This document shows, one piece after another, positions 1 through 18,911 of a stretch of DNA of 18,911 nt (position 1 is the stretch's first letter; each line of letters opens with the position of its first letter). A model generated the notes under the pieces. It was given only the letters and a program-made list of their open reading frames with translations. It made no database searches and had not been told where the DNA came from. The stretch covers positions 1 to 18,911 of the IMG/VR virus record IMGVR_UViG_2724679293_000031; one strand, given 5' to 3'. The stretch comes from a virus. Its lineage: Duplodnaviria; Heunggongvirae; Uroviricota; Caudoviricetes. The translations under genes were made by a program, and so were the position numbers.

Positions 1-573
1 ATGTTTTGCGAAGAAAAAGTAGCTCAAATGGCTGCATACCTACTTCTTAAGAGAGGTGGGCGCATGGCATATCTGAAATTGATGAAGCTGCTCTATCTGT
101 CTAACCGCCAGTCGATTTTGAAGCATGGCAGGATGATCGGCGAAGATAGCCTTTACTCTATGAAATTTGGACCAGTCATGTCGAATACGCTGAACTTGAT
201 TCGCGGTAAGGCTGAAGGCATTGGTGACTACTGGTACAACTTGATAGAGACGAACGGGCATAATGTATCGTTGCGTTCAGATCCGAGGGAAATGGATGCA
301 GACGAGGTCTTTGATGAATTGAGTCGTGCAGATATCCGGATTTTAGATGAAATCTATTCTCGGTATGGGCATATGAACCGATTTGATCTCGCAAATATGA
401 CGCATTTAGAAAGCGTTTGTCCAGAGTGGCACGATCCTGGCAATTCTCGTAAGCCTATAGACCTGAAAGAAATGCTGATCAGTGAGGGTAAAAGCGAGGA
501 TGAGGCTAATCGCATAATTGGCAAAATGGAAGAATCTCAGAAACTTAAGGAATTTTCTTTGCAATTATCATGA
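1..573 (+). CDS. Panacea-domain (DUF4065, SocA/GepA-like) antitoxin-like protein; may be 5'-partial at window edge
   Basis: 190-aa ORF with the motif pattern KLxKLLY...FGPV typical of DUF4065/GepA phage-associated proteins (recalled, not searched). Stop overlaps the next ORF's start (ATGA at 570-573). Confidence 0.55.
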   Translation: MFCEEKVAQMAAYLLLKRGGRMAYLKLMKLLYLSNRQSILKHGRMIGEDSLYSMKFGPVMSNTLNLIRGKAEGIGDYWYNLIETNGHNVSLRSDPREMDADEVFDELSRADIRILDEIYSRYGHMNRFDLANMTHLESVCPEWHDPGNSRKPIDLKEMLISEGKSEDEANRIIGKMEESQKLKEFSLQLS

Positions 574-989
574 CGGATTATCAGCCATACAGGAAAGGAA
601 CTGTGCTTGCCCCAACTGGACCATGCAATCATCTTCATGTGATTTGTAATGATCCTGTTTATTACCCCGTTAACGATTGTTATTGTGTTTTAGTTGTTAA
701 TATTTCTAGTATCAAGGATGGTGTCCCCCACGATCCGTCTTGCGTCTTGAATTCTGGTGATCATCGCTTTATCAAGCATCCAAGTTATGTTGTTTACGCT
801 GAAGCTATAATTTGGCGAGTGGATAACATGGTTAGAAAGCAGCGATCGGGTGAGATTTCTGTTCATGATGATATGCCAGAAGCTACATTCAATAGAATTC
901 TGGACGGTTTTGATATCTCTGATGAAGTTACGCCAAAGAACCTTAAATTTAAAAATAAATATTGCGTATCATCTATTGATGATGAGTAA
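570..989 (+). CDS. hypothetical protein, candidate toxin partner of the upstream Panacea-domain gene
   Basis: 139-aa ORF translationally coupled to the upstream gene by a 4-bp overlap; no own SD at normal spacing. Product has no motif I recognise; composition is protein-like. Confidence 0.4.
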   Translation: MTDYQPYRKGTVLAPTGPCNHLHVICNDPVYYPVNDCYCVLVVNISSIKDGVPHDPSCVLNSGDHRFIKHPSYVVYAEAIIWRVDNMVRKQRSGEISVHDDMPEATFNRILDGFDISDEVTPKNLKFKNKYCVSSIDDE

Positions 990-5911: not shown

Positions 5912-5917
5912 NNNNNN
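5912..5917. other. assembly gap (N-run) of unknown true length
   Basis: Six N characters; the flanking minus-strand ORF is open into the gap. Confidence 0.9.
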
Positions 5918-7036: not shown

Positions 7037-7729
7037 TTAATTGTGTCGCTTAAGGGTTTGTGACTGACTGATTAAGACCTTTCCAAAGACCATAAACCGA
7101 TGTTCGTTTTCGCTGGTAATTCCCCATTCGCGGTAAATCTGATTATCAGAAATTACCAGCAGTTTATCAGGTATCATTTGCAGTCGTTTGACGTAAATTT
7201 TATCATCAAAACCAAATGCATATATACCATCCCCATCAAACTGATTGATACTGATATCAACGAAGATGAGATCTCCTGGCTCAATGGTTGGACACATACT
7301 GTCCCCACGAACGTTGATAACTTTAATGTGATTTGCTGGTCGTCCACCAAACATCGATACAGCATTATCAGTTCTGTATTCAATGGCATGAATCACATCA
7401 ATGACATCACCGCCCTGGATAAGGCCATTTCCCGCACTGGCACTGACATCCAGCATTTCAATACGGAATACATCCTTCACCTGCGCAACATCCTCACTAA
7501 TACTGTTTTTACATACAGTATTACTTTTGAGGTCTGAGGTAAAGAGATCAGCAATATCAACACCTAAGCTCCTGGCAATATTACTCAGGGCTTGTTCAGT
7601 GAATTGTTTCTGCTTACCTGTTTCGAGGCGCGAGATATTCGCCGCATCCACTCCTATTGCTTCAGCGAGATCGGCGATTTTCATGTTCTTCGCCTGGCGA
7701 AGTTGTCTGACTCGATTTCCTATGTTCAT
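7037..7729 (-). CDS. cI-like prophage repressor (XRE-type HTH plus S24/LexA-like autopeptidase domain)
   Basis: N-terminal HTH (…IADLAEAIGVDAANISRLETGK…); C-terminal GDSM motif (VRGDSMCPTIEPGD) and downstream KRL lysine typical of S24 self-cleaving repressors. Divergent from a cro-like gene. Confidence 0.85.
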   Translation of the reverse strand: MNIGNRVRQLRQAKNMKIADLAEAIGVDAANISRLETGKQKQFTEQALSNIARSLGVDIADLFTSDLKSNTVCKNSISEDVAQVKDVFRIEMLDVSASAGNGLIQGGDVIDVIHAIEYRTDNAVSMFGGRPANHIKVINVRGDSMCPTIEPGDLIFVDISINQFDGDGIYAFGFDDKIYVKRLQMIPDKLLVISDNQIYREWGITSENEHRFMVFGKVLISQSQTLKRHN

Positions 7730-9994: not shown

Positions 9995-10830
9995 GTATGG
10001 AGCTGATGGTTAAAGCGATGAAAATTCGAGTGGGTAATCCATTGCGAAAACTGGTTCTGATCAAGCTGGCTGATAATGCCAGCGATCAGGGTGAGTGCTG
10101 GCCCAGCTACCAGCATATTGCTGACCAGTGCGAGATTAGCAAACGTTCTGTGATGAATCATATTGCGGCCCTTTGTGAGTCCGGGCTGGTAAAAAAAGTC
10201 ACCCGGAAAGGTGAAAAAGGTAACTCAAGTAATATCTATCTCCTTCATCTTGATGGTGCAGGAGATTCACTAGGGAGTAGTGCAAATAATTCACTATCTG
10301 GTGCAGCAAATTCACCAGGTAGTGCAGGAGTTGCACTAGGTAGTGCAGGAGTTGCACCAGGGGGTAGTGCAGGAGATTCACCCAGAACCAGTCACTCTTT
10401 TGAACCAGTCAAAGAACCAGTCAATGAACCAATAGCTGTTGGTGCATCTGCTGATGAGTCTGTGCGAGTTCGTTCAAACCGACCGGAATACTCTCCAGAG
10501 TTTGAGCAGGCATGGCTGGCATATCCCAAACGTGCTGGTGGCAATTCAAAATCTGCAGCCTTCAAAGCCTGGAAAGCCCGTTTGAATGAGGGGGTAAACC
10601 CCGAAACCATGCTGGAAGGTGTGAAACGCTACGCGGGCTGGGTATCTGCGATGGGTAACAGCGGCACACAATTTGTGAAACAGGCTGTCACGTTCTTTGG
10701 TCCGGATCGTCATTTCGAAGAATCCTGGGAAGTTCCTGCGGTATCTGTAGCCGGACGTGAGGACCCGTACTTCAAAGCCAGTTACGACAACGTGGACTAC
10801 AGCCAGATCCCGGCAGGATTCAGGGGGTGA
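9991..10830 (+). CDS. O-like replication initiation / replisome-organiser protein with HTH N-terminal domain
   Basis: GGAGG SD. N-terminal HTH typical of phage replication proteins, a Gly/Ser/Ala-rich linker encoded by tandem DNA repeats, and a conserved C-terminal region (…AWKARL…TFFGP…). Confidence 0.6.
   Translation: MSMELMVKAMKIRVGNPLRKLVLIKLADNASDQGECWPSYQHIADQCEISKRSVMNHIAALCESGLVKKVTRKGEKGNSSNIYLLHLDGAGDSLGSSANNSLSGAANSPGSAGVALGSAGVAPGGSAGDSPRTSHSFEPVKEPVNEPIAVGASADESVRVRSNRPEYSPEFEQAWLAYPKRAGGNSKSAAFKAWKARLNEGVNPETMLEGVKRYAGWVSAMGNSGTQFVKQAVTFFGPDRHFEESWEVPAVSVAGREDPYFKASYDNVDYSQIPAGFRG
10255..10433 (+). repeat. iteron-like tandem repeats inside the O-like gene (candidate phage ori)
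   Basis: About six tandem 21-24-bp units with core (A/G)GTGCAGGAG(A/T)T(T/G)CAC (10255-10383), followed by 3.5 copies of GAACCAGTCA (10385-10433). Confidence 0.45.
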
Positions 10831-10832
10831 TC

Positions 10833-11321
10833 ATGAGTCTTTTGAATGACGTTCAGAAATTCATTGAAGCCCATCCGGGGTGTACTTCCGGAGACATTGC
10901 GGATGCTTTTGCAGGTTACTCACGGCAGCGCGTTCTGCGGTCAGCAAGCAAGTTACGTCAGAGCGGGCGTGTGGCTCACCGTTGTGAAGGAGATACACGC
11001 AGACATTTCCCGCGCCTGACTGAGAGAGCGCAGGAACCGGAACCACAACCAGTTCGAGAAACCAGACCTGTGCGCAATTTCTATGTCGGCACTAACGATC
11101 CACGGGTGATTTTGTGCCTGACCCGCCAGGCGGAAGAACTGGAGTCCAGGGGCTTATACCGTCGTGCTGCAACGGTGTGGATGGCGGCATTCCGTGAAAG
11201 CCACTCCCAGCAAGAGCGAAACAATTTTCTGGCGCGTCGTGAGCGGTGCTTACGGAAAAGCAGCAAGCGCGCTGCATCGGGTGAAGAGTGGTATCTGTCA
11301 GGGAATTACGTGGGGGCTTAA
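10833..11321 (+). CDS. PerC-family (Pch-like) transcriptional regulator
   Basis: Start at ATG 10833 with GGGGG SD. ELESRGLYRRAATVW matches the recalled PerC-family signature (E-LE-x-KGLWRRAA-x-RW). Confidence 0.5.
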   Translation: MSLLNDVQKFIEAHPGCTSGDIADAFAGYSRQRVLRSASKLRQSGRVAHRCEGDTRRHFPRLTERAQEPEPQPVRETRPVRNFYVGTNDPRVILCLTRQAEELESRGLYRRAATVWMAAFRESHSQQERNNFLARRERCLRKSSKRAASGEEWYLSGNYVGA

Positions 11322-11646
11322 TGAGTAATAAATATTGCCAGGCGCTGGTGGAACTGCGGAACAAACCAGCCCATGAACTGAAGGAAGTGGGCGATCAGTG
11401 GCGCACGCCGGACAACATTTTCTGGGGAATTAACACCCTGTTTGGCCCGTTTGTTCTGGATCTGTTCACTGACGGTGATAATGCCAAATGTGCCGCGTAT
11501 TACACGGCGGAAGACAACNNNNNAAGACCTGGAAGGGACCGGCAATCAGCTACATCGGGCGCGATGAACTTGAGGCATGTGGTGAGGCCTTTCTGGCGCA
11601 GGTTCGCCAGCAGGCGGAAAAACTGGTCAGGGAGATGGCGGCATGA
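11321..11646 (+). CDS. phage DNA N6-adenine methyltransferase (Dam family), interrupted by an assembly gap
   Basis: N-terminus MSNKYCQALVELRNKPAHELKEVGDQWRTPD...FGPFVLDLFTD... is the recalled phage Dam signature. The N-run at 11519-11523 breaks the frame; a 40-codon C-terminal piece resumes in another frame and ends at TGA 11644-11646. Confidence 0.6.
11519..11523. other. assembly gap (N-run) of unknown true length
   Basis: Five N characters; reading frame before and after is inconsistent with a literal 5-nt gap. Confidence 0.9.
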
Positions 11647-11969
11647 CGACGTTAACTCAATGCCAGCAGCAGGTGCTGGATATGCTGATTTCTTACCAGA
11701 AAGAGCGTGGCTTTCCGCCAACCAATCAGGAGGTGGCAACCATGCTGGGATATCGTTCAGTGAATGCAGCGGTGGAGCATCTTCGCGCACTGGAGAAAAA
11801 AGGCGTCATCACGATAAAGCGTGGTGTGGCCCGGGGGATAACGCTTCATACCGCGGTGAAGGACGACGACAGCGAGGCGGTCGGGATTATCCGCTCACTG
11901 CTTGCCGGTGAGGAAAACGCCAGGCTGCGTGCAGCCCACTGGTTACATGAGAGGGGTCTGAAAGTATGA
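11643..11969 (+). CDS. LexA N-terminal DNA-binding-domain homologue lacking the S24 protease domain
   Basis: 108 aa; LTQCQQQVLDMLISYQKERGFPPTNQEVATMLGYRSVNAAVEHLRALEKKGVITIKRGVARGI aligns by eye with the E. coli LexA N-terminus ([63 protein letters not shown]). No Ser/Lys autocleavage region. Confidence 0.65.
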   Translation: MTTLTQCQQQVLDMLISYQKERGFPPTNQEVATMLGYRSVNAAVEHLRALEKKGVITIKRGVARGITLHTAVKDDDSEAVGIIRSLLAGEENARLRAAHWLHERGLKV

Positions 11970-12355
11970 AGCTGATTCTGCCTTTCCCGCCCAGCGTGAA
12001 CACGTACTGGCGACACCCCAACAAAGGGGCGTTTGCAGGTAAGAGCCTGATAAGCGCGGCGGGGCGCAAATTCCAGAGCGCGGCGTGTGCAGCAATAGTT
12101 GAGCAGTTACGTCGTCTGCCAAAACCAACGTCGGCACCTGCTTCAGTGGAGATCGTGTTGTTTCCTCCGGATAACCGGATCCGCGATCTGGACAACTATA
12201 ACAAGGCGCTGTTTGACGCCCTGACCCACGCGGGTGTGTGGGAAGACGACAGTCAGGTGAAAAGAATGCTGGTGGAGTGGGGACCGGTTATCCCGGAAGG
12301 GAAGGTCGAGATCACTATCAGTAAGTACGAGAAAACGGCGGGTGCAGCCGCCTGA
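11966..12355 (+). CDS. rusA: RusA-family Holliday junction resolvase
   Basis: LPFPPSVNTYWRH... and ...RDLDNYNKALFDALTHAGVWEDDSQV match conserved RusA motifs; ATGA overlap with the upstream gene. Confidence 0.8.
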   Translation: MKLILPFPPSVNTYWRHPNKGAFAGKSLISAAGRKFQSAACAAIVEQLRRLPKPTSAPASVEIVLFPPDNRIRDLDNYNKALFDALTHAGVWEDDSQVKRMLVEWGPVIPEGKVEITISKYEKTAGAAA

Positions 12356-12374: not shown

Positions 12375-13172
12375 ATGAATAATCTGATGGTCATTGATGG
12401 TATTGAAGTTCGTCGTGATGCTTATGGTCGTTACAGCCTGAACGATCTGCACAGGGCTGCCGGTTCTCTGGATAAGCATAAGCCTGCATTCTGGCTCCGC
12501 AATGAGCAAACTGAGCGTTTAATAAGCGAGTTGCAGATTTGCAACTCGGTCAATATAGAGCCAGTTAACGTTATTCGTGGCGGAAATAACCAGGGGACGT
12601 ATGTCTGCAAAGAACTGGTGTATGCCTATGCAATGTGGATCAGCCCGTCATTCCATCTGAAGGTGATCCGTACTTTCGACATGGTAACCAGCGCACCGGA
12701 AAAATTATCCGGACAGGCTGCTGACAAGATGCAGGCTGGTGTGATTCTGCTGGACTTTATGCGCCGGGAGTTAAATCTGTCTAACTCTTCAGTGCTTGGA
12801 GCCTGTCAGAAACTTCAGGAGGCTGTTGGCTTACCGAATCTGGCACCGCGCTATGCCATTGATGCTCCTGCTGATGCGCCTGATGGCTCAAGCCGCCCCA
12901 CGCTGTCGCTGAGTGCACTGCTGAAACAGTATGGTATCCGCCTGACGGCTAATCAGGCATATCACCAGATGGTGAAGCTGGGGATCGTCGAGCAGCGCGA
13001 ACGATACAGTCGTACCGCGATTAACAACATCAAAAAATTCTGGTCGCTGACAGCGAAAGGCTGCATGTTCGGCAAGAACATCACCAGTCCCGCAAATCCG
13101 CGCGAGACGCAGCCGCATTTCTTCGAATCCCGATTCCCTGAGCTGTTAAAGCTGCTCGATACCGTTCATTGA
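12375..13172 (+). CDS. KilA-N domain protein (antirepressor-like)
   Basis: AGGAG SD; N-terminal KilA-N-like segment (IEVRRDAYGRYSLNDLHRAAG…WLRN…QGTYVCKELVYAYAMWISPSFHLKVI). Confidence 0.65.
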   Translation: MNNLMVIDGIEVRRDAYGRYSLNDLHRAAGSLDKHKPAFWLRNEQTERLISELQICNSVNIEPVNVIRGGNNQGTYVCKELVYAYAMWISPSFHLKVIRTFDMVTSAPEKLSGQAADKMQAGVILLDFMRRELNLSNSSVLGACQKLQEAVGLPNLAPRYAIDAPADAPDGSSRPTLSLSALLKQYGIRLTANQAYHQMVKLGIVEQRERYSRTAINNIKKFWSLTAKGCMFGKNITSPANPRETQPHFFESRFPELLKLLDTVH

Positions 13173-13173
13173 G

Positions 13174-14169
13174 GTGACCGTGAGAGCACTACTGACCCCT
13201 GAAATTGCCCCGCGTATGGGGATCGTATTGTTCAGGCCAGGTTCAGAGCTGATGCCCCTGTTTATGCAGGGGCGTGTCCTGCTGGAGCCTGAGCCGGAGC
13301 GTTATTCATCTTTCGCCAGTGGTGCCGTTCCGGCGGCATCACAACCGCTGGCGGATGATCCTGCCGTTCGGGCCGTGTTCCGCAATGAGGCAGTGATCCG
13401 TCGTGCTGGTGGCGTGGAATGTCTTGAAAGCTGGTTACTTCGTGAAAAAGGCTGCCAGTGGCCTCATTCCGACTGGCACAGCGAGAACATGACCACAATG
13501 CGACACGCTCCGGGTGCAATCCGTCTGTGCTGGCACTGCGATAACCAGCTGCGCGATCAGTTCACGGAACGGCTGGAATCAATGGCAACGGATAACTGTG
13601 CCCGCTGGGTGTTGTCTGTTGTGCGTCGGGATCTCGGTTTTGATGACAGTCACGTTGTGACAATGCCGGAACTGTGCTGGTGGCTGATTCGTAATGATCT
13701 GGCGGATGCCTTACCGGAAAGTGCAGCCCGTAAGGCACTGAGATTACCGAAGCCTGTTGTGCCGTCTGTTACCCGGGAAAGTGACCTTGTGCCTTCGGTT
13801 CCTGCCACCAGCATCATCCAGGATAAGGCGAAAAAGGTGCTGGCGCTGAAAGTGGATCCGGAGTCGCCGGAGTCTTTTATGTTACGCCCAAAACGTCGCC
13901 GCTGGGTTAATGAAAAGTACACGCGCTGGGTTAAGACACAGCCGTGTGCATGTTGTGGAAAGCCCGCTGATGATCCCCACCACCTGATAGGTCACGGTCA
14001 GGGTGGAATGGGAACAAAAGCGCATGACCTTTTTGTGTTGCCTTTGTGCAGAAAGCATCACGACGAGCTGCATGCGGATACCGTGGCATTTGAAGAGAAG
14101 TATGGCTCCCAGCTGGAGCTGATATTTCGTTTTATCGATCGTGCGCTGGCAATTGGCGTGCTGGCCTGA
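13174..14169 (+). CDS. DUF968-family phage protein (HNH-like Cys/His C-terminal motif)
   Basis: C-terminal ...[20 protein letters not shown]...[12 protein letters not shown]... resembles the DUF968 signature. GTG start at 13174 is uncertain (alternative ATG at 13216). Confidence 0.55.
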
Positions 14170-15683: not shown

Positions 15684-16397
15684 ATGGCTGTTGTCTGTTC
15701 AGTTATCATGGTTTGCTCCCCAATTAATATTTTTCTTGAAAAGGATACGTTGTCACTTAAGCCAGGCTCAGTTGTTCTGGCCACCAAATGCATCAGGGAG
15801 CTTTTCCTTATGCATTATGGCAAAGTTAAAATTGTCGATATAAGCGAATCCGTCGTAAGTCAATATCTGGAAAGTCAGCATAAGCTGACGAGGACTCGTC
15901 TGACTGACATTCCGCTTTACCTGTTGCTGGAACCCAACAATCCTGCGTTGGCTGCGGCTTTAATTACCAGCCAGGGATTTTCCGGAGAGGCCACGGATAT
16001 GTTTCTTATGATGGCCTGCCTGTCTCTGTTTGAAACAGATGAACGGATGTCATTGTTTTTAAGTGGATGTTTATCCAGCATAAGTGCCAAAGTCAGGGCG
16101 ATAATTCAGACAGATATATCAGCAAGCTGGACGCTTGGTGCGATTGCTCTACAGTTGCATATGAGTGAGAGTTTGTTAAAGACAAAACTGAAAAATGAAG
16201 GGGGCATGTTCAGTCGCTTGTTGCTGGAAGAGCGGATGCGTGTTGCTGTAAATATGTTATGTTCCCGGCATGGATATGGACAGGCTATAGCAGAAAAATG
16301 CGGTTATTCAAGCAGGTCCTACTTTATTTCTGTATTTCACCGCTATTATGGCTTCCCGCCAGACAGATATGTATCCAGGCAAGGGCTTGATTATTGA
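15684..16397 (+). CDS. AraC-family transcriptional regulator, AppY-like (no ligand-binding cupin evident)
   Basis: C-terminal AraC-type HTH (…WTLGAIALQLHMSESLLKTKLKNEGGMFSRLLLEERMRVAVNMLCS…GYSSRSYFISVFHRYYGFPP). N-terminus MAVVCSVIMVC resembles recalled AppY (MDYVCSVVFIC). Confidence 0.7.
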   Translation: MAVVCSVIMVCSPINIFLEKDTLSLKPGSVVLATKCIRELFLMHYGKVKIVDISESVVSQYLESQHKLTRTRLTDIPLYLLLEPNNPALAAALITSQGFSGEATDMFLMMACLSLFETDERMSLFLSGCLSSISAKVRAIIQTDISASWTLGAIALQLHMSESLLKTKLKNEGGMFSRLLLEERMRVAVNMLCSRHGYGQAIAEKCGYSSRSYFISVFHRYYGFPPDRYVSRQGLDY

Positions 16398-18185: not shown

Positions 18186-18911
18186 ATGGCATTTAAACAC
18201 TATGATGTTGTCAGGGCGGCGTCGCCATCAGATCTTGCGGAAAAGCTGACACATAAACTGAAAGAGGGCTGGCAGCCGTTTGGTAGTCCGGTGGCCATAA
18301 CCCCTTATACTCTGATGCAGGCGATTACAGCAGAAGGTGATGTGGTGGTCAGTGGTGCAACTGAGCCGGATTGGTACTACGTCATCGTACTGGCCGGGCA
18401 GTCCAATGCCATGGCTTACGGTGAAGGGCTTCCGCTGCCGGATTCATACGATGCTCCGGATCCGCGCATTAAACAGCTGGCGCGCCGCAGTACAGTGACG
18501 CCGGGTGGGGCTGCCTGCAGATATAACGATATTATTCCGGCCGACCACTGCCTGCATGATGTGCAGGATATGAGTACGCTGAATCATCCGAAGGCAGACC
18601 TGAGCAAAGGGCAGTACGGCTGTGTCGGCCAGGGCTTACATATTGCCAAAAAACTGCTTCCGTATATCCCGAATAACGCGGGGATCCTGCTGGCACCATG
18701 CTGTCGTGGTGGTTCGGCATTCACCCAGGGCGCGGAGGGGACATTCAGTGCGGACACGGGGGCCAGCCAGGATTCGGCACGCTGGGGTGTGGGTAAACCG
18801 TTATATCAGGACCTGATTGCGCGCACTAAAGCTGCATTACAGAAGAACCCGAAAAATGTGTTGCTGGCGGTGTGCTGGATGCAGGGAGAGTTTGACATGA
18901 GCGCCGCCACC
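18186..18911 (+). CDS. prophage sialate O-acetylesterase NanS-p-like (DUF1737 N-terminal domain plus SASA-type esterase), 3'-partial
   Basis: Frame open from ATG 18186 to the window end (242 codons). N-terminus MAFKHYDVVRAASPSDLAEKLTHKLKEGWQPFG resembles DUF1737; GQSN esterase motif (VLAGQSNAMAYGEG). Missing from the ORF track because no stop falls inside the window. Confidence 0.7.
   Translation, partial: MAFKHYDVVRAASPSDLAEKLTHKLKEGWQPFGSPVAITPYTLMQAITAEGDVVVSGATEPDWYYVIVLAGQSNAMAYGEGLPLPDSYDAPDPRIKQLARRSTVTPGGAACRYNDIIPADHCLHDVQDMSTLNHPKADLSKGQYGCVGQGLHIAKKLLPYIPNNAGILLAPCCRGGSAFTQGAEGTFSADTGASQDSARWGVGKPLYQDLIARTKAALQKNPKNVLLAVCWMQGEFDMSAAT

What the first reader, a model, noticed from the sequence alone, without database searches (positions are those of the whole stretch)
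11643..11969. Phage-encoded LexA DNA-binding domain without the autocleavage domain
The 108-aa product aligns along its whole N-terminal part with the LexA winged-helix domain but stops before the Ser/Lys S24 peptidase region. Such a protein could occupy SOS boxes without being RecA-cleavable, which would make it an uninducible LexA mimic. It is translationally coupled to rusA (ATGA overlap).
Basis: partly seen in the sequence, partly recalled or inferred. Interest (0 to 1): 0.5.

Follow-up and report, generated by a model that had tools for sequence, protein, structure and literature searches.

The report
Prophage LexA DNA-binding domain without protease
A lambdoid E. coli prophage carries a small, well conserved gene that keeps the DNA-reading half of the SOS repressor LexA, swaps the self-cleaving half for a short helical tail, and so probably makes a repressor that DNA damage cannot switch off; the gene is already widely annotated but nobody seems to have tested it.

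Summary
ORF 11643-11969 (+) encodes 108 aa. Residues 1-65 match the whole LexA_DNA_bind domain (PF01726, E 2.9e-19), and the model superposes on DNA-bound E. coli LexA at 0.9 A. There is no S24 peptidase domain. The ATGA overlaps with rusA and with the upstream Dam gene are real.

It is not a new sighting. The gene is in 2,233 of 5,426 complete E. coli genomes and in Stx2, SfII/SfIV/SfV and mEp460 phages, annotated as 'LexA family transcriptional regulator' (PHROG 362). I found no functional study of it. The nearest tested precedent is GIL01 gp6, a truncated LexA homologue that activates a late promoter through its own palindrome.

New here:
- The family (39-100% identity) has a conserved two-helix C-terminal hairpin in place of the protease.
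- It keeps LexA's contact residues S39, N41 and A42, and usually E45, but never E44.
- It lies in the PR-to-Q early operon, usually fused to rusA.
- In sister clades it sits behind canonical SOS-box promoters, and in 18 loci the first gene of that unit is dinI.

Best reading (0.45): a RecA-insensitive binder of LexA boxes that restores repression after host LexA is cleaved. Main rival (0.3): a regulator with its own operator. Interest is moderate.

The parts
11643..11969 (+). Coding sequence of the 108-aa LexA-NTD-only protein (called LexN in this report), stop codon included
   Evidence: ORF list and sequence. PF01726 E 2.9e-19. PHROG 362 'transcriptional repressor' E 1.4e-59 over the full length. 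Purifying selection, 48 synonymous against 10 non-synonymous variant sites.
11643..11849 (+). Winged helix-turn-helix domain, residues 1-69. Helices 6-22, 28-35 and 40-52 (the recognition helix, carrying S39, N41, A42, V44, E45); wing strands 56-58 and 66-68.
   Evidence: AlphaFold model secondary structure. Foldseek to LexA-DNA complex 3jso, rmsd 0.9 A over 68 residues, 50% identity. Residue table.
11859..11966 (+). C-terminal helical hairpin, residues 73-108 (helices 73-88 and 93-103), after a floppy linker at 71-75. It replaces the S24 protease/dimerisation domain and is inferred to be the dimerisation element.
   Evidence: Model pLDDT 88-90 in this part. The hairpin pattern is conserved in homologues of 39-51% identity. 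No sequence relative among solved structures. Dimerisation itself is inferred, not shown.
11630..11634 (+). Shine-Dalgarno-like GGGAG, 8 nt upstream of the ATG, lying inside the end of the Dam gene
   Evidence: Read directly from the sequence.
11643..11646 (+). ATGA overlap: LexN start codon over the stop codon of the upstream Dam methyltransferase gene
   Evidence: Sequence. The intact homologous arrangement is annotated in L001 and mEp460.
11966..11969 (+). ATGA overlap: rusA start codon over the LexN stop codon
   Evidence: Sequence. The same overlap is present in 80 of 80 near-identical viral loci and in several distant lineages.
11966..12355 (+). rusA, a Holliday-junction resolvase and the usual downstream partner gene
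   Evidence: PF05866 E 6.1e-15 and PHROG 34 E 3.1e-58.
11321..11646 (+). Phage N6-adenine (Dam-type) methyltransferase gene upstream, interrupted in this window by a run of N at 11519-11523
   Evidence: Annotation of the intact homologue in L001, 654 nt. The right flank of the N-run maps to L001 position 13308 (exact match); the left flank gave no exact match, so the figure of about 333 nt missing is derived from gene lengths.
7501..7520 (.). Strongest LexA-type operator in the window, TACTGTTTTTACATACAGTA, inside the cI-like repressor gene (7037-7729, minus strand). A candidate target for host LexA and, by inference only, for LexN.
   Evidence: PSSM score 25.7 bits, against a shuffle maximum averaging 10.8 and never above 17.8. 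The box is conserved at the same place in cI homologues of mEp460, ST64B, a Klebsiella phage and L008. It is not tied to the presence of LexN.

Best explanation
LexN is a small sequence-specific DNA-binding protein derived from a proteobacterial LexA. It keeps LexA's winged-helix domain and most of its base-reading residues. A two-helix C-terminal hairpin replaces the S24 protease/dimerisation domain and is inferred to mediate dimerisation.

Because it has no catalytic Ser/Lys domain and no conserved Ala-Gly cleavage site, activated RecA cannot inactivate it. In this prophage it is made as a delayed-early product of the rightward PR operon (cro ... O-like, PerC, Dam, LexN, RusA, KilA-N, DUF968, Q). 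That means it appears after induction or infection, when host LexA is depleted.

The proposed role is to re-occupy LexA-type operators and so restore repression of SOS-controlled promoters while RecA is still active. Candidate targets are host SOS genes and LexA-controlled promoters on this and co-resident prophages. In short, a phage-encoded SOS reset.

Shown: homology, fold, absence of the protease, operon position, family conservation, and the link to SOS-box promoters and dinI in sister clades. Inferred: dimerisation, SOS-box specificity, repression, and the benefit to the phage.
For: - The LexA_DNA_bind domain is complete. The model fits DNA-bound LexA at 0.9 A.
- Of LexA's helix-3 contact residues (PMC3091678), S39 and N41 are invariant in all 53 distinct family sequences, A42 is nearly invariant, and E45 is kept in most. 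The wing residues R64-G65-I66 are invariant in the 17-sequence alignment.
- The conserved, confidently modelled helical hairpin argues for a functional replacement of the lost dimerisation domain rather than a decaying fragment.
- The gene lies between the replication genes and Q, with no promoter-like site or terminator of its own above chance.
- In 29 of 31 loci from five sister sub-clades, a canonical SOS box of 18-30 bits lies upstream of the unit [small ORF, LexN]. It overlaps a sigma-70-like promoter placed directly after a terminator.
- In 18 of those loci the first gene after the box is a DinI homologue (PF06183, E 8e-22). From general knowledge, DinI is another modulator of RecA co-protease activity.
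- These prophages carry many LexA boxes that such a protein could act on: inside cI, after rusA in front of a KilA-N gene, and downstream of Q.
Against: - There is no experimental evidence for this family in the searchable literature.
- The only tested phage truncated LexA homologue, GIL01 gp6, recognises a different palindrome and activates transcription.
- Contact residue E44 is never Glu in the family. E45 is Leu in the dinI-linked sub-clade and Ile in L013, so specificity may have drifted.
- Half-site spacing depends on how the hairpin dimerises, which is unknown.
- SOS boxes upstream of the gene are explained equally well by host LexA alone.
- In this window no SOS box lies near the gene.
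- An identical LexN occurs in a prophage (L001) with another cI allele and no strong SOS box in 21 kb.
- If LexN shut its own SOS-box promoter in the sister clades it would also limit Q expression, which is not obviously useful to the phage.
Confidence: 0.45

Rival explanations
1. LexN is a phage-specific transcription factor of the GIL01 gp6 type. The borrowed LexA domain has drifted to recognise the phage's own operator, not SOS boxes. It activates or represses particular phage promoters during lytic growth, for example moron, anti-repressor or late-region promoters.
For: - The gp6 precedent: a truncated LexA homologue that binds GaCACAnnTGTGaC and activates late promoter P3.
- Position 44 is systematically changed, and position 45 is changed in some sub-clades.
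- A new dimerisation element could impose a new half-site spacing.
- LexN is no closer to E. coli LexA (about 50% identity) than to other LexA proteins (up to 58%).
Against: - S39, N41, A42 and mostly E45 are retained across a family that has otherwise diverged to 39% identity.
- Late transcription in these lambdoid phages is already provided by Q, just downstream.
- From O to Q the genes are packed with almost no intergenic space for an operator.
- I found no conserved alternative palindrome, though I did not run a dedicated motif search.
Confidence: 0.3
2. LexN is not a transcription factor. It is a DNA-binding accessory of the recombination and replication functions beside it, for example targeting or modulating RusA. 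This would explain the persistent translational coupling to rusA.
For: - rusA overlaps the LexN stop in 80 of 80 close loci.
- rusA follows LexN, directly or after one small gene, in 6 of 6 lineages of 39-51% identity, even though the upstream neighbour changes: Dam, C5-methylase, replication protein or small ORF.
Against: - In 24 of 60 surveyed loci no rusA was detected downstream. In L186 LexN is followed only by a 67-aa ORF and DUF968.
- rusA occurs without LexN in ST64B, where the Dam gene carries an unrelated extension.
- From general knowledge, RusA of DLP12/phage 82 works alone as a homodimer.
- The retained LexA base-reading residues are not needed for a structure-specific DNA role.
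- The whole RusA-DUF968-Q block is syntenic in this phage lineage, so the linkage may simply be inherited gene order.
Confidence: 0.1
3. LexN acts on proteins rather than operators. It would be a decoy or antagonist in the SOS circuit, for example titrating RecA filaments or host LexA, or serving as a pseudo-substrate through the LLAGEE stretch that aligns with LexA's VAAGEP cleavage site.
For: - HMMER aligns residues 76-90 with the LexA linker and cleavage-site region, placing A88-G89 on A84-G85.
- The association with dinI in sister clades.
Against: - The Ala-Gly pair is not conserved. Close homologues have AN or VG, and distant ones ER, TR, SG, DD, AD or AC.
- In the model this stretch is the end of a helix in the hairpin, not an exposed loop.
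- RecA recognition of LexA resides mainly in the C-terminal domain (PMC11787620), which LexN lacks.
Confidence: 0.05

Closest known systems
E. coli LexA N-terminal domain (residues 1-69; PDB 1lea, 3jso)
   Same: Same fold, at 0.9 A over 68 residues and about 50% identity. Same recognition-helix pattern RS-x-NAA-x-EHL and the wing residues RGI.
   Different: - No S24 domain, no catalytic Ser119/Lys156, and no conserved Ala-Gly site.
- E44 is replaced.
- A conserved helical hairpin follows the wing.
- It falls below the NCBIfam LexA equivalog cut-off.
GIL01 (Bacillus tectivirus) gp6, a truncated LexA homologue
   Same: [quoted passage not shown]
   Different: - gp6 is described as the winged-helix domain only, with no helical hairpin.
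- It derives from a Bacillus-type LexA.
- It binds GaCACAnnTGTGaC and activates the late promoter.
- LexN keeps gamma-proteobacterial LexA reading residues and sits in a lambdoid phage whose late genes are controlled by Q.
- Direct sequence relatedness of LexN to gp6 was not tested.
Non-cleavable LexA (Ind-) mutants such as G85D and S119A, and the LexA 1-84 cleavage fragment
   Same: LexA DNA-binding activity that RecA cannot remove. Non-cleavable LexA keeps SOS genes off under damage (PMC3159453).
   Different: - The Ind- mutants keep the C-terminal dimerisation domain.
- The natural 1-84 fragment binds weakly (general knowledge) and is degraded by ClpXP and Lon (PMC3159453).
- LexN has its own tail and a different C-terminus (...GLKV).
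DinI, and GIL01 gp7: mobile-element modulators of the SOS switch
   Same: Small phage or prophage proteins that damp or reshape the RecA-LexA response. dinI is the first gene of the SOS-box operon that carries LexN in 18 sister loci.
   Different: They act on RecA or LexA protein, not on DNA, and are unrelated in sequence and fold.
Lambdoid cI-type repressors (HTH plus S24)
   Same: Encoded by the same prophages and part of the same SOS-linked circuitry. This window's cI is at 7037-7729.
   Different: cI has an XRE-type HTH plus an S24 domain (annotated in L001 and on record for the cI genes of L005 and L008). From general knowledge such repressors are RecA-cleavable. LexN has a LexA-type winged helix and no S24 domain, and it sits in the lytic operon, not the immunity region.

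Membership tests
Bona fide LexA repressor (NCBIfam TIGR00498 equivalog) | N-terminal LexA-type winged helix-turn-helix domain | tested here: met
   PF01726 positions 1-65 of 65, E 2.9e-19. Rmsd 0.9 A to 3jso.
Bona fide LexA repressor (NCBIfam TIGR00498 equivalog) | C-terminal S24 peptidase domain with the catalytic Ser/Lys dyad, which is also the dimerisation domain | tested here: not met
   The protein ends at residue 108. There is no Peptidase_S24 hit, and only model positions 1-91 of 203 are matched.
Bona fide LexA repressor (NCBIfam TIGR00498 equivalog) | Conserved Ala-Gly autocleavage site in the linker | tested here: not met
   A88-G89 aligns with A84-G85. The pair is not conserved in the family, and it lies within a predicted helix.
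Bona fide LexA repressor (NCBIfam TIGR00498 equivalog) | Whole-protein score above the curated cut-off | tested here: not met
   70.8 bits against a cut-off of 110.95.
Bona fide LexA repressor (NCBIfam TIGR00498 equivalog) | Binds CTGT-N8-ACAG SOS boxes and represses the SOS regulon | not testable with these tools
   Indirect evidence only: 4 of 5 contact residues kept, and SOS boxes upstream of the gene in sister clades.
PHROG 362 / 'LexA family transcriptional regulator' of enterobacterial lambdoid phages | Full-length match to the family profile (about 106 aa: LexA domain plus tail) | tested here: met
   PHROG 362, E 1.4e-59, residues 1-108 on profile positions 1-106 of 106. The gene is 95-100% identical at the DNA level in 2,233 E. 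coli genomes and 50 phage records.
PHROG 362 / 'LexA family transcriptional regulator' of enterobacterial lambdoid phages | Position in the early rightward operon between the replication genes and Q, usually just upstream of rusA | tested here: met
   Annotated context in L001 and mEp460. 80 of 80 close loci. Distant loci.
gp6-type truncated LexA homologues of tectiviruses | [quoted passage not shown] | tested here: met
   LexN has an extra conserved hairpin that is not described for gp6.
gp6-type truncated LexA homologues of tectiviruses | Sequence relatedness to gp6 itself, including the essential Lys38 in the recognition helix | not tested
LexN has Arg at its own position 38, but the numbering may not correspond.
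gp6-type truncated LexA homologues of tectiviruses | Binds its own palindrome overlapping the -35 of the late promoter and activates transcription | not testable with these tools
   No binding data. Late genes in this phage type depend on Q.

The most novel reading that the evidence does not exclude
LexN is the DNA-binding arm of a prophage-encoded 'SOS reset' module. It would be a RecA-proof LexA surrogate that closes LexA-controlled promoters while damage signalling is still on. In sister clades it is co-transcribed with DinI from an SOS-box promoter, which would give a self-limiting pulse. In E. coli, where 41% of complete genomes carry it and some carry up to four copies, it would let one induced prophage silence host SOS functions and the LexA-controlled anti-repressors of rival prophages. 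That would set an induction hierarchy and affect the timing of Stx-phage induction.
Probability: 0.3. Interest if true: 0.65.

Novelty: new member of a known kind. Interest (0 to 1): 0.4.

Why it matters
If LexN binds SOS boxes, then nearly half of sequenced E. coli strains, including O157:H7 Stx2 lysogens and Shigella serotype-converting phages, carry one or more LexA surrogates that RecA cannot remove.

That would add an unrecognised layer to SOS dynamics during prophage induction:
- how long host SOS genes stay on;
- whether LexA-controlled anti-repressors of co-resident prophages fire;
- possibly the timing of Shiga-toxin phage induction under antibiotics that trigger SOS.

It would also be a natural counterpart to the engineered non-cleavable LexA variants being explored to curb persistence and mutagenesis. 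If instead it has its own operator, it is a second, independent case, after GIL01 gp6, of a phage re-tooling the LexA DNA-binding domain. Either way the tests are simple.

Tried and rejected
- **Remnant of the LexA cleavage site (LLAGEE against VAAGEP).** HMMER extends the alignment over it. The Ala-Gly is not conserved in close or distant homologues, and the stretch is helical in the model. Rejected as a defining feature.
- **The cI-internal SOS box as LexN's dedicated operator.** The box is kept in ST64B, which has no LexN. An identical LexN occurs in L001 with another cI allele and no such box. Rejected as a specific pairing; it remains a possible target.
- **Obligate LexN-RusA unit.** Contradicted by the dinI-linked sub-clades that lack rusA.
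- **Genome-wide locus survey.** The genome-contig scan with the family alignment returned almost only genuine full-length lexA genes of other Gammaproteobacteria, plus one Kosakonia family member. It was not useful.
- **Structure of the tail.** A profile search against solved structures gave nothing below E 0.77.
- **PADLOC.** Only a weak generic winged-helix hit.
- **Own promoter or terminator for LexN.** Promoter-like matches equalled the shuffled expectation; terminator-like matches exceeded it (17 against 8.1), but none isolates LexN as a separate transcription unit.
- **Literature.** Nine full-text searches found catalogue mentions only (PMC8136144, pham 237) and the gp6 paper. The Zhang et al. 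2010 LexA-DNA structure paper is not held, so the contact-residue list is cited from PMC3091678.
- **SOS-box scoring matrix.** I built it from 21 E. coli operators recalled from memory. Its absolute scores are only a guide, though the top hits are unmistakable palindromes.

Full report
**What is there**

The window is the early region of a lambdoid E. coli prophage. Its closest complete-genome match (L001, 99.4% identity over 80% of the window) is annotated in this order: cI-type repressor, cro-like regulator, YmfL/cII-like, DUF4222, replication protein, PerC-family regulator, phage N6-adenine methyltransferase, 'LexA family transcriptional regulator', RusA, KilA-N protein, DUF968 protein, antiterminator Q.

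The finding is the eighth of these. ORF 11643-11969 (+) encodes 108 aa and has GGGAG 8 nt before the ATG. Its ATG overlaps the stop of the methyltransferase gene (ATGA at 11643-11646). Its stop overlaps the rusA ATG (ATGA at 11966-11969).

**Is it a LexA DNA-binding domain without the protease? Yes.**

- Pfam LexA_DNA_bind matches end to end (residues 1-65 on positions 1-65 of 65, E 2.9e-19). No S24 peptidase domain is found.
- The NCBIfam LexA equivalog matches only its first 91 of 203 positions and stays below its cut-off.
- The best solved relatives are the E. coli LexA N-terminal domain and full-length LexA.
- An AlphaFold model built on 17 family sequences (pLDDT 83) has the expected three helices and two-stranded wing. 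It superposes on LexA from the LexA-operator crystal structure at 0.9 A over 68 residues, with 50% identity.

**It is a gene under selection, and a family of its own**

Among 47 distinct alleles from 80 viral contigs, 48 variant sites are synonymous and 10 are not. An exhaustive profile-free search found proteins of 39-51% identity with the same size. They share the same two-part build: the LexA domain followed by about 35 residues with a conserved pattern (...A-V-x-x-L/I-R-x-L-L...G/N-A-R-x-R-A-x-x-x-L...).

In the model this tail is a confident helix-turn-helix hairpin (helices 73-88 and 93-103) after a floppy linker. It has no sequence relative among solved structures. LexA dimerises through the domain this protein lacks. 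A conserved hairpin is therefore most simply read as a replacement dimerisation element, but that is inference.

HMMER's alignment places 'LLAGEE' on LexA's 'VAAGEP' cleavage site. This does not survive comparison, because the Ala-Gly is variable even among close homologues.

**Already known?**

As an annotation, yes:
- The gene is 95-100% identical at the DNA level in 2,233 of 5,426 complete E. coli genomes, with up to four copies per genome.
- It is in 50 phage records, including Stx2a and Stx2c converting phages, SfII, SfIV and 1720a-02.
- SfV, cdtI, mEp460 and mEp390 carry homologues.
- It is labelled 'LexA family transcriptional regulator', 'LexA DNA binding domain protein' or 'transcriptional repressor'. 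It belongs to PHROG 362.
- A Stx-phage catalogue lists a PF01726-only pham (pham 237) in 15 phages without comment (PMC8136144).

Nine full-text searches found no functional work on it.

The concept has one tested precedent. GIL01 gp6 is 'a truncated homologue of LexA' consisting of the DNA-binding domain. It binds its own palindrome at the late promoter and activates it (PMC6182141).

**What does it read?**

E. coli LexA's DNA-contacting residues are given as S39, N41, A42, E44 and E45 of helix 3 (PMC3091678). The window protein has S, N, A, V, E.

Across 53 distinct family sequences:
- S39 and N41 are invariant, and A42 is nearly so.
- Position 44 is never Glu (V, A, F or T instead).
- Position 45 is Glu in most, but Leu in one sub-clade, Ile in L013 and Asp in L009.

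The wing residues R64-G65-I66 are invariant in the 17-sequence family alignment. So the reading head is largely LexA-like, with one systematic change. This is compatible with CTGT half-site recognition but does not prove it.

**Context evidence**

1. In 80 of 80 near-identical loci rusA overlaps the stop codon. In six lineages of 39-51% identity rusA follows directly or after one small gene, while the upstream neighbour varies. In 24 of 60 surveyed loci, however, no rusA is present. ST64B has rusA without LexN. The pairing is therefore habitual, not obligatory.

2. A scoring matrix built from 21 E. coli operators (recalled from memory) finds one outstanding site in the window, TACTGTTTTTACATACAGTA at 7501-7520. 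It scores 25.7 bits; the shuffled maximum averages 10.8 and never exceeds 17.8. The site lies inside the cI-like gene.

3. In five sister sub-clades (L010 and L174-178; L013; L179-182; L183-200 and L207; L198-199), 29 of 31 loci have a canonical SOS box of 18-30 bits upstream of a small PHROG-1813 ORF that immediately precedes LexN. The box overlaps a sigma-70-like promoter placed right after a terminator.

4. In 18 of those loci the first gene behind the box is a DinI homologue (PF06183, E 8e-22). In those phages LexN is thus part of an SOS-derepressed unit, together with a known modulator of RecA co-protease activity.

5. In four close loci an SOS box sits right after rusA in front of a KilA-N gene. 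In 18 of 80, another lies downstream of Q. These prophages are densely wired to LexA.

**Most likely mechanism**

LexN is a RecA-insensitive binder of LexA-type operators. In this phage it is made from PR as a delayed-early product, and in the sister clades it is also made from SOS-box promoters. It re-imposes repression at LexA boxes once host LexA has been cleaved.

I put this at 0.45. The homology, the retained reading residues, the dedicated tail and the SOS/dinI association all point that way. But nothing shows binding, host LexA alone explains the upstream boxes, and gp6 shows that such domains can be re-targeted.

Rivals:
- A regulator with its own operator (0.3).
- A RusA or recombination accessory (0.1).
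- A protein-level decoy (0.05).
- The remainder is unassigned.

**Verdict**

It is a new, untested member of a known kind (phage-encoded LexA-domain-only regulators), and it is already annotated by homology. Interest is moderate. It is not surprising to a specialist, but the gene is very widespread, sits in medically relevant phages, and can be tested with simple experiments.

Noticed in passing
window 7501-7520, inside the cI-like gene 7037-7729 (-); also L002 9465, L003 9468, L004 7857, L008 836: A near-consensus SOS box is embedded in the linker-coding part of this cI repressor family. It is kept in homologues down to 69% DNA identity from E. coli, Salmonella ST64B and Klebsiella. Only the codons forming the CTGT/ACAG arms (T-V-x-x-N/H-S) are conserved, the spacer stays AT-rich and the flanking linker residues vary, which suggests selection on the DNA site. 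All 24 of 80 viral loci with this cI allele have the box. Its function is unknown; a roadblock or an internal or antisense LexA-controlled promoter are possibilities.
   Followed up: partly
L186 3320-4327, and L179-L200 generally: In Klebsiella-type relatives an SOS-box promoter placed directly after a terminator drives dinI-like, then a PHROG 1813 ORF, then LexN, then a PHROG 1212 ORF, DUF968 and Q, with no rusA. The small PHROG 1813 protein has no known function and could be a LexA-controlled anti-repressor.
   Followed up: partly
L149, L166, L168, L169: about 764 bp after the LexN start, just after rusA: A variant intergenic region carries an SOS box (22-24 bits) in front of a different KilA-N gene. 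This looks like a LexA-controlled anti-repressor. In the window the KilA-N gene (12375-13172) follows rusA by 20 bp with no box.
   Followed up: partly
L002 (mEp460) 18516-18535, and 18 of the 80 viral loci, 4-6 kb downstream of LexN: A recurrent SOS box, TACTGTAAAAATAAACAGTG (22.7 bits), lies downstream of Q at the start of a DNA methylase gene. mEp460 also has two SOS boxes in front of its DinI-like gene at L002 750 and 778.
   Followed up: no
window 11519-11523 and 5912-5917: Two short runs of N. The one at 11519-11523 sits in the Dam methyltransferase gene and stands for about 333 nt present in the intact homologue (L001 12777-13430), so the Dam ORF looks broken in the window. The figure comes from gene lengths and the position of the right flank; the left flank gave no exact match.
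   Followed up: partly
window 10827-11321 (+): A PerC-family regulator gene (PF06069 E 2.1e-09; PHROG 1324 'transcriptional activator') lies two genes upstream of LexN. From general knowledge, PerC/Pch-type prophage regulators control LEE virulence genes in EHEC and EPEC.
   Followed up: no
window 16061-16080: The second-best SOS-like site, AAGTGGATGTTTATCCAGCA (17.1 bits), is at the edge of what shuffles reach. It lies inside the HTH-domain gene 15684-16397 and is also present in L001.
   Followed up: no
L003 (ST64B) 13275-14168: In ST64B the Dam gene (Sb44, 297 aa) carries an unrelated C-terminal extension of about 80 aa at the place where LexN lies in the E. coli phages, and it is followed directly by rusA.
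   Followed up: no
window 1-573 and 570-989 (+): The left end of the window encodes what the best-matching genome annotates as a Panacea domain-containing protein followed by a hypothetical protein. It may be a toxin-antitoxin-like pair at the prophage edge. There were no PADLOC hits.
   Followed up: no
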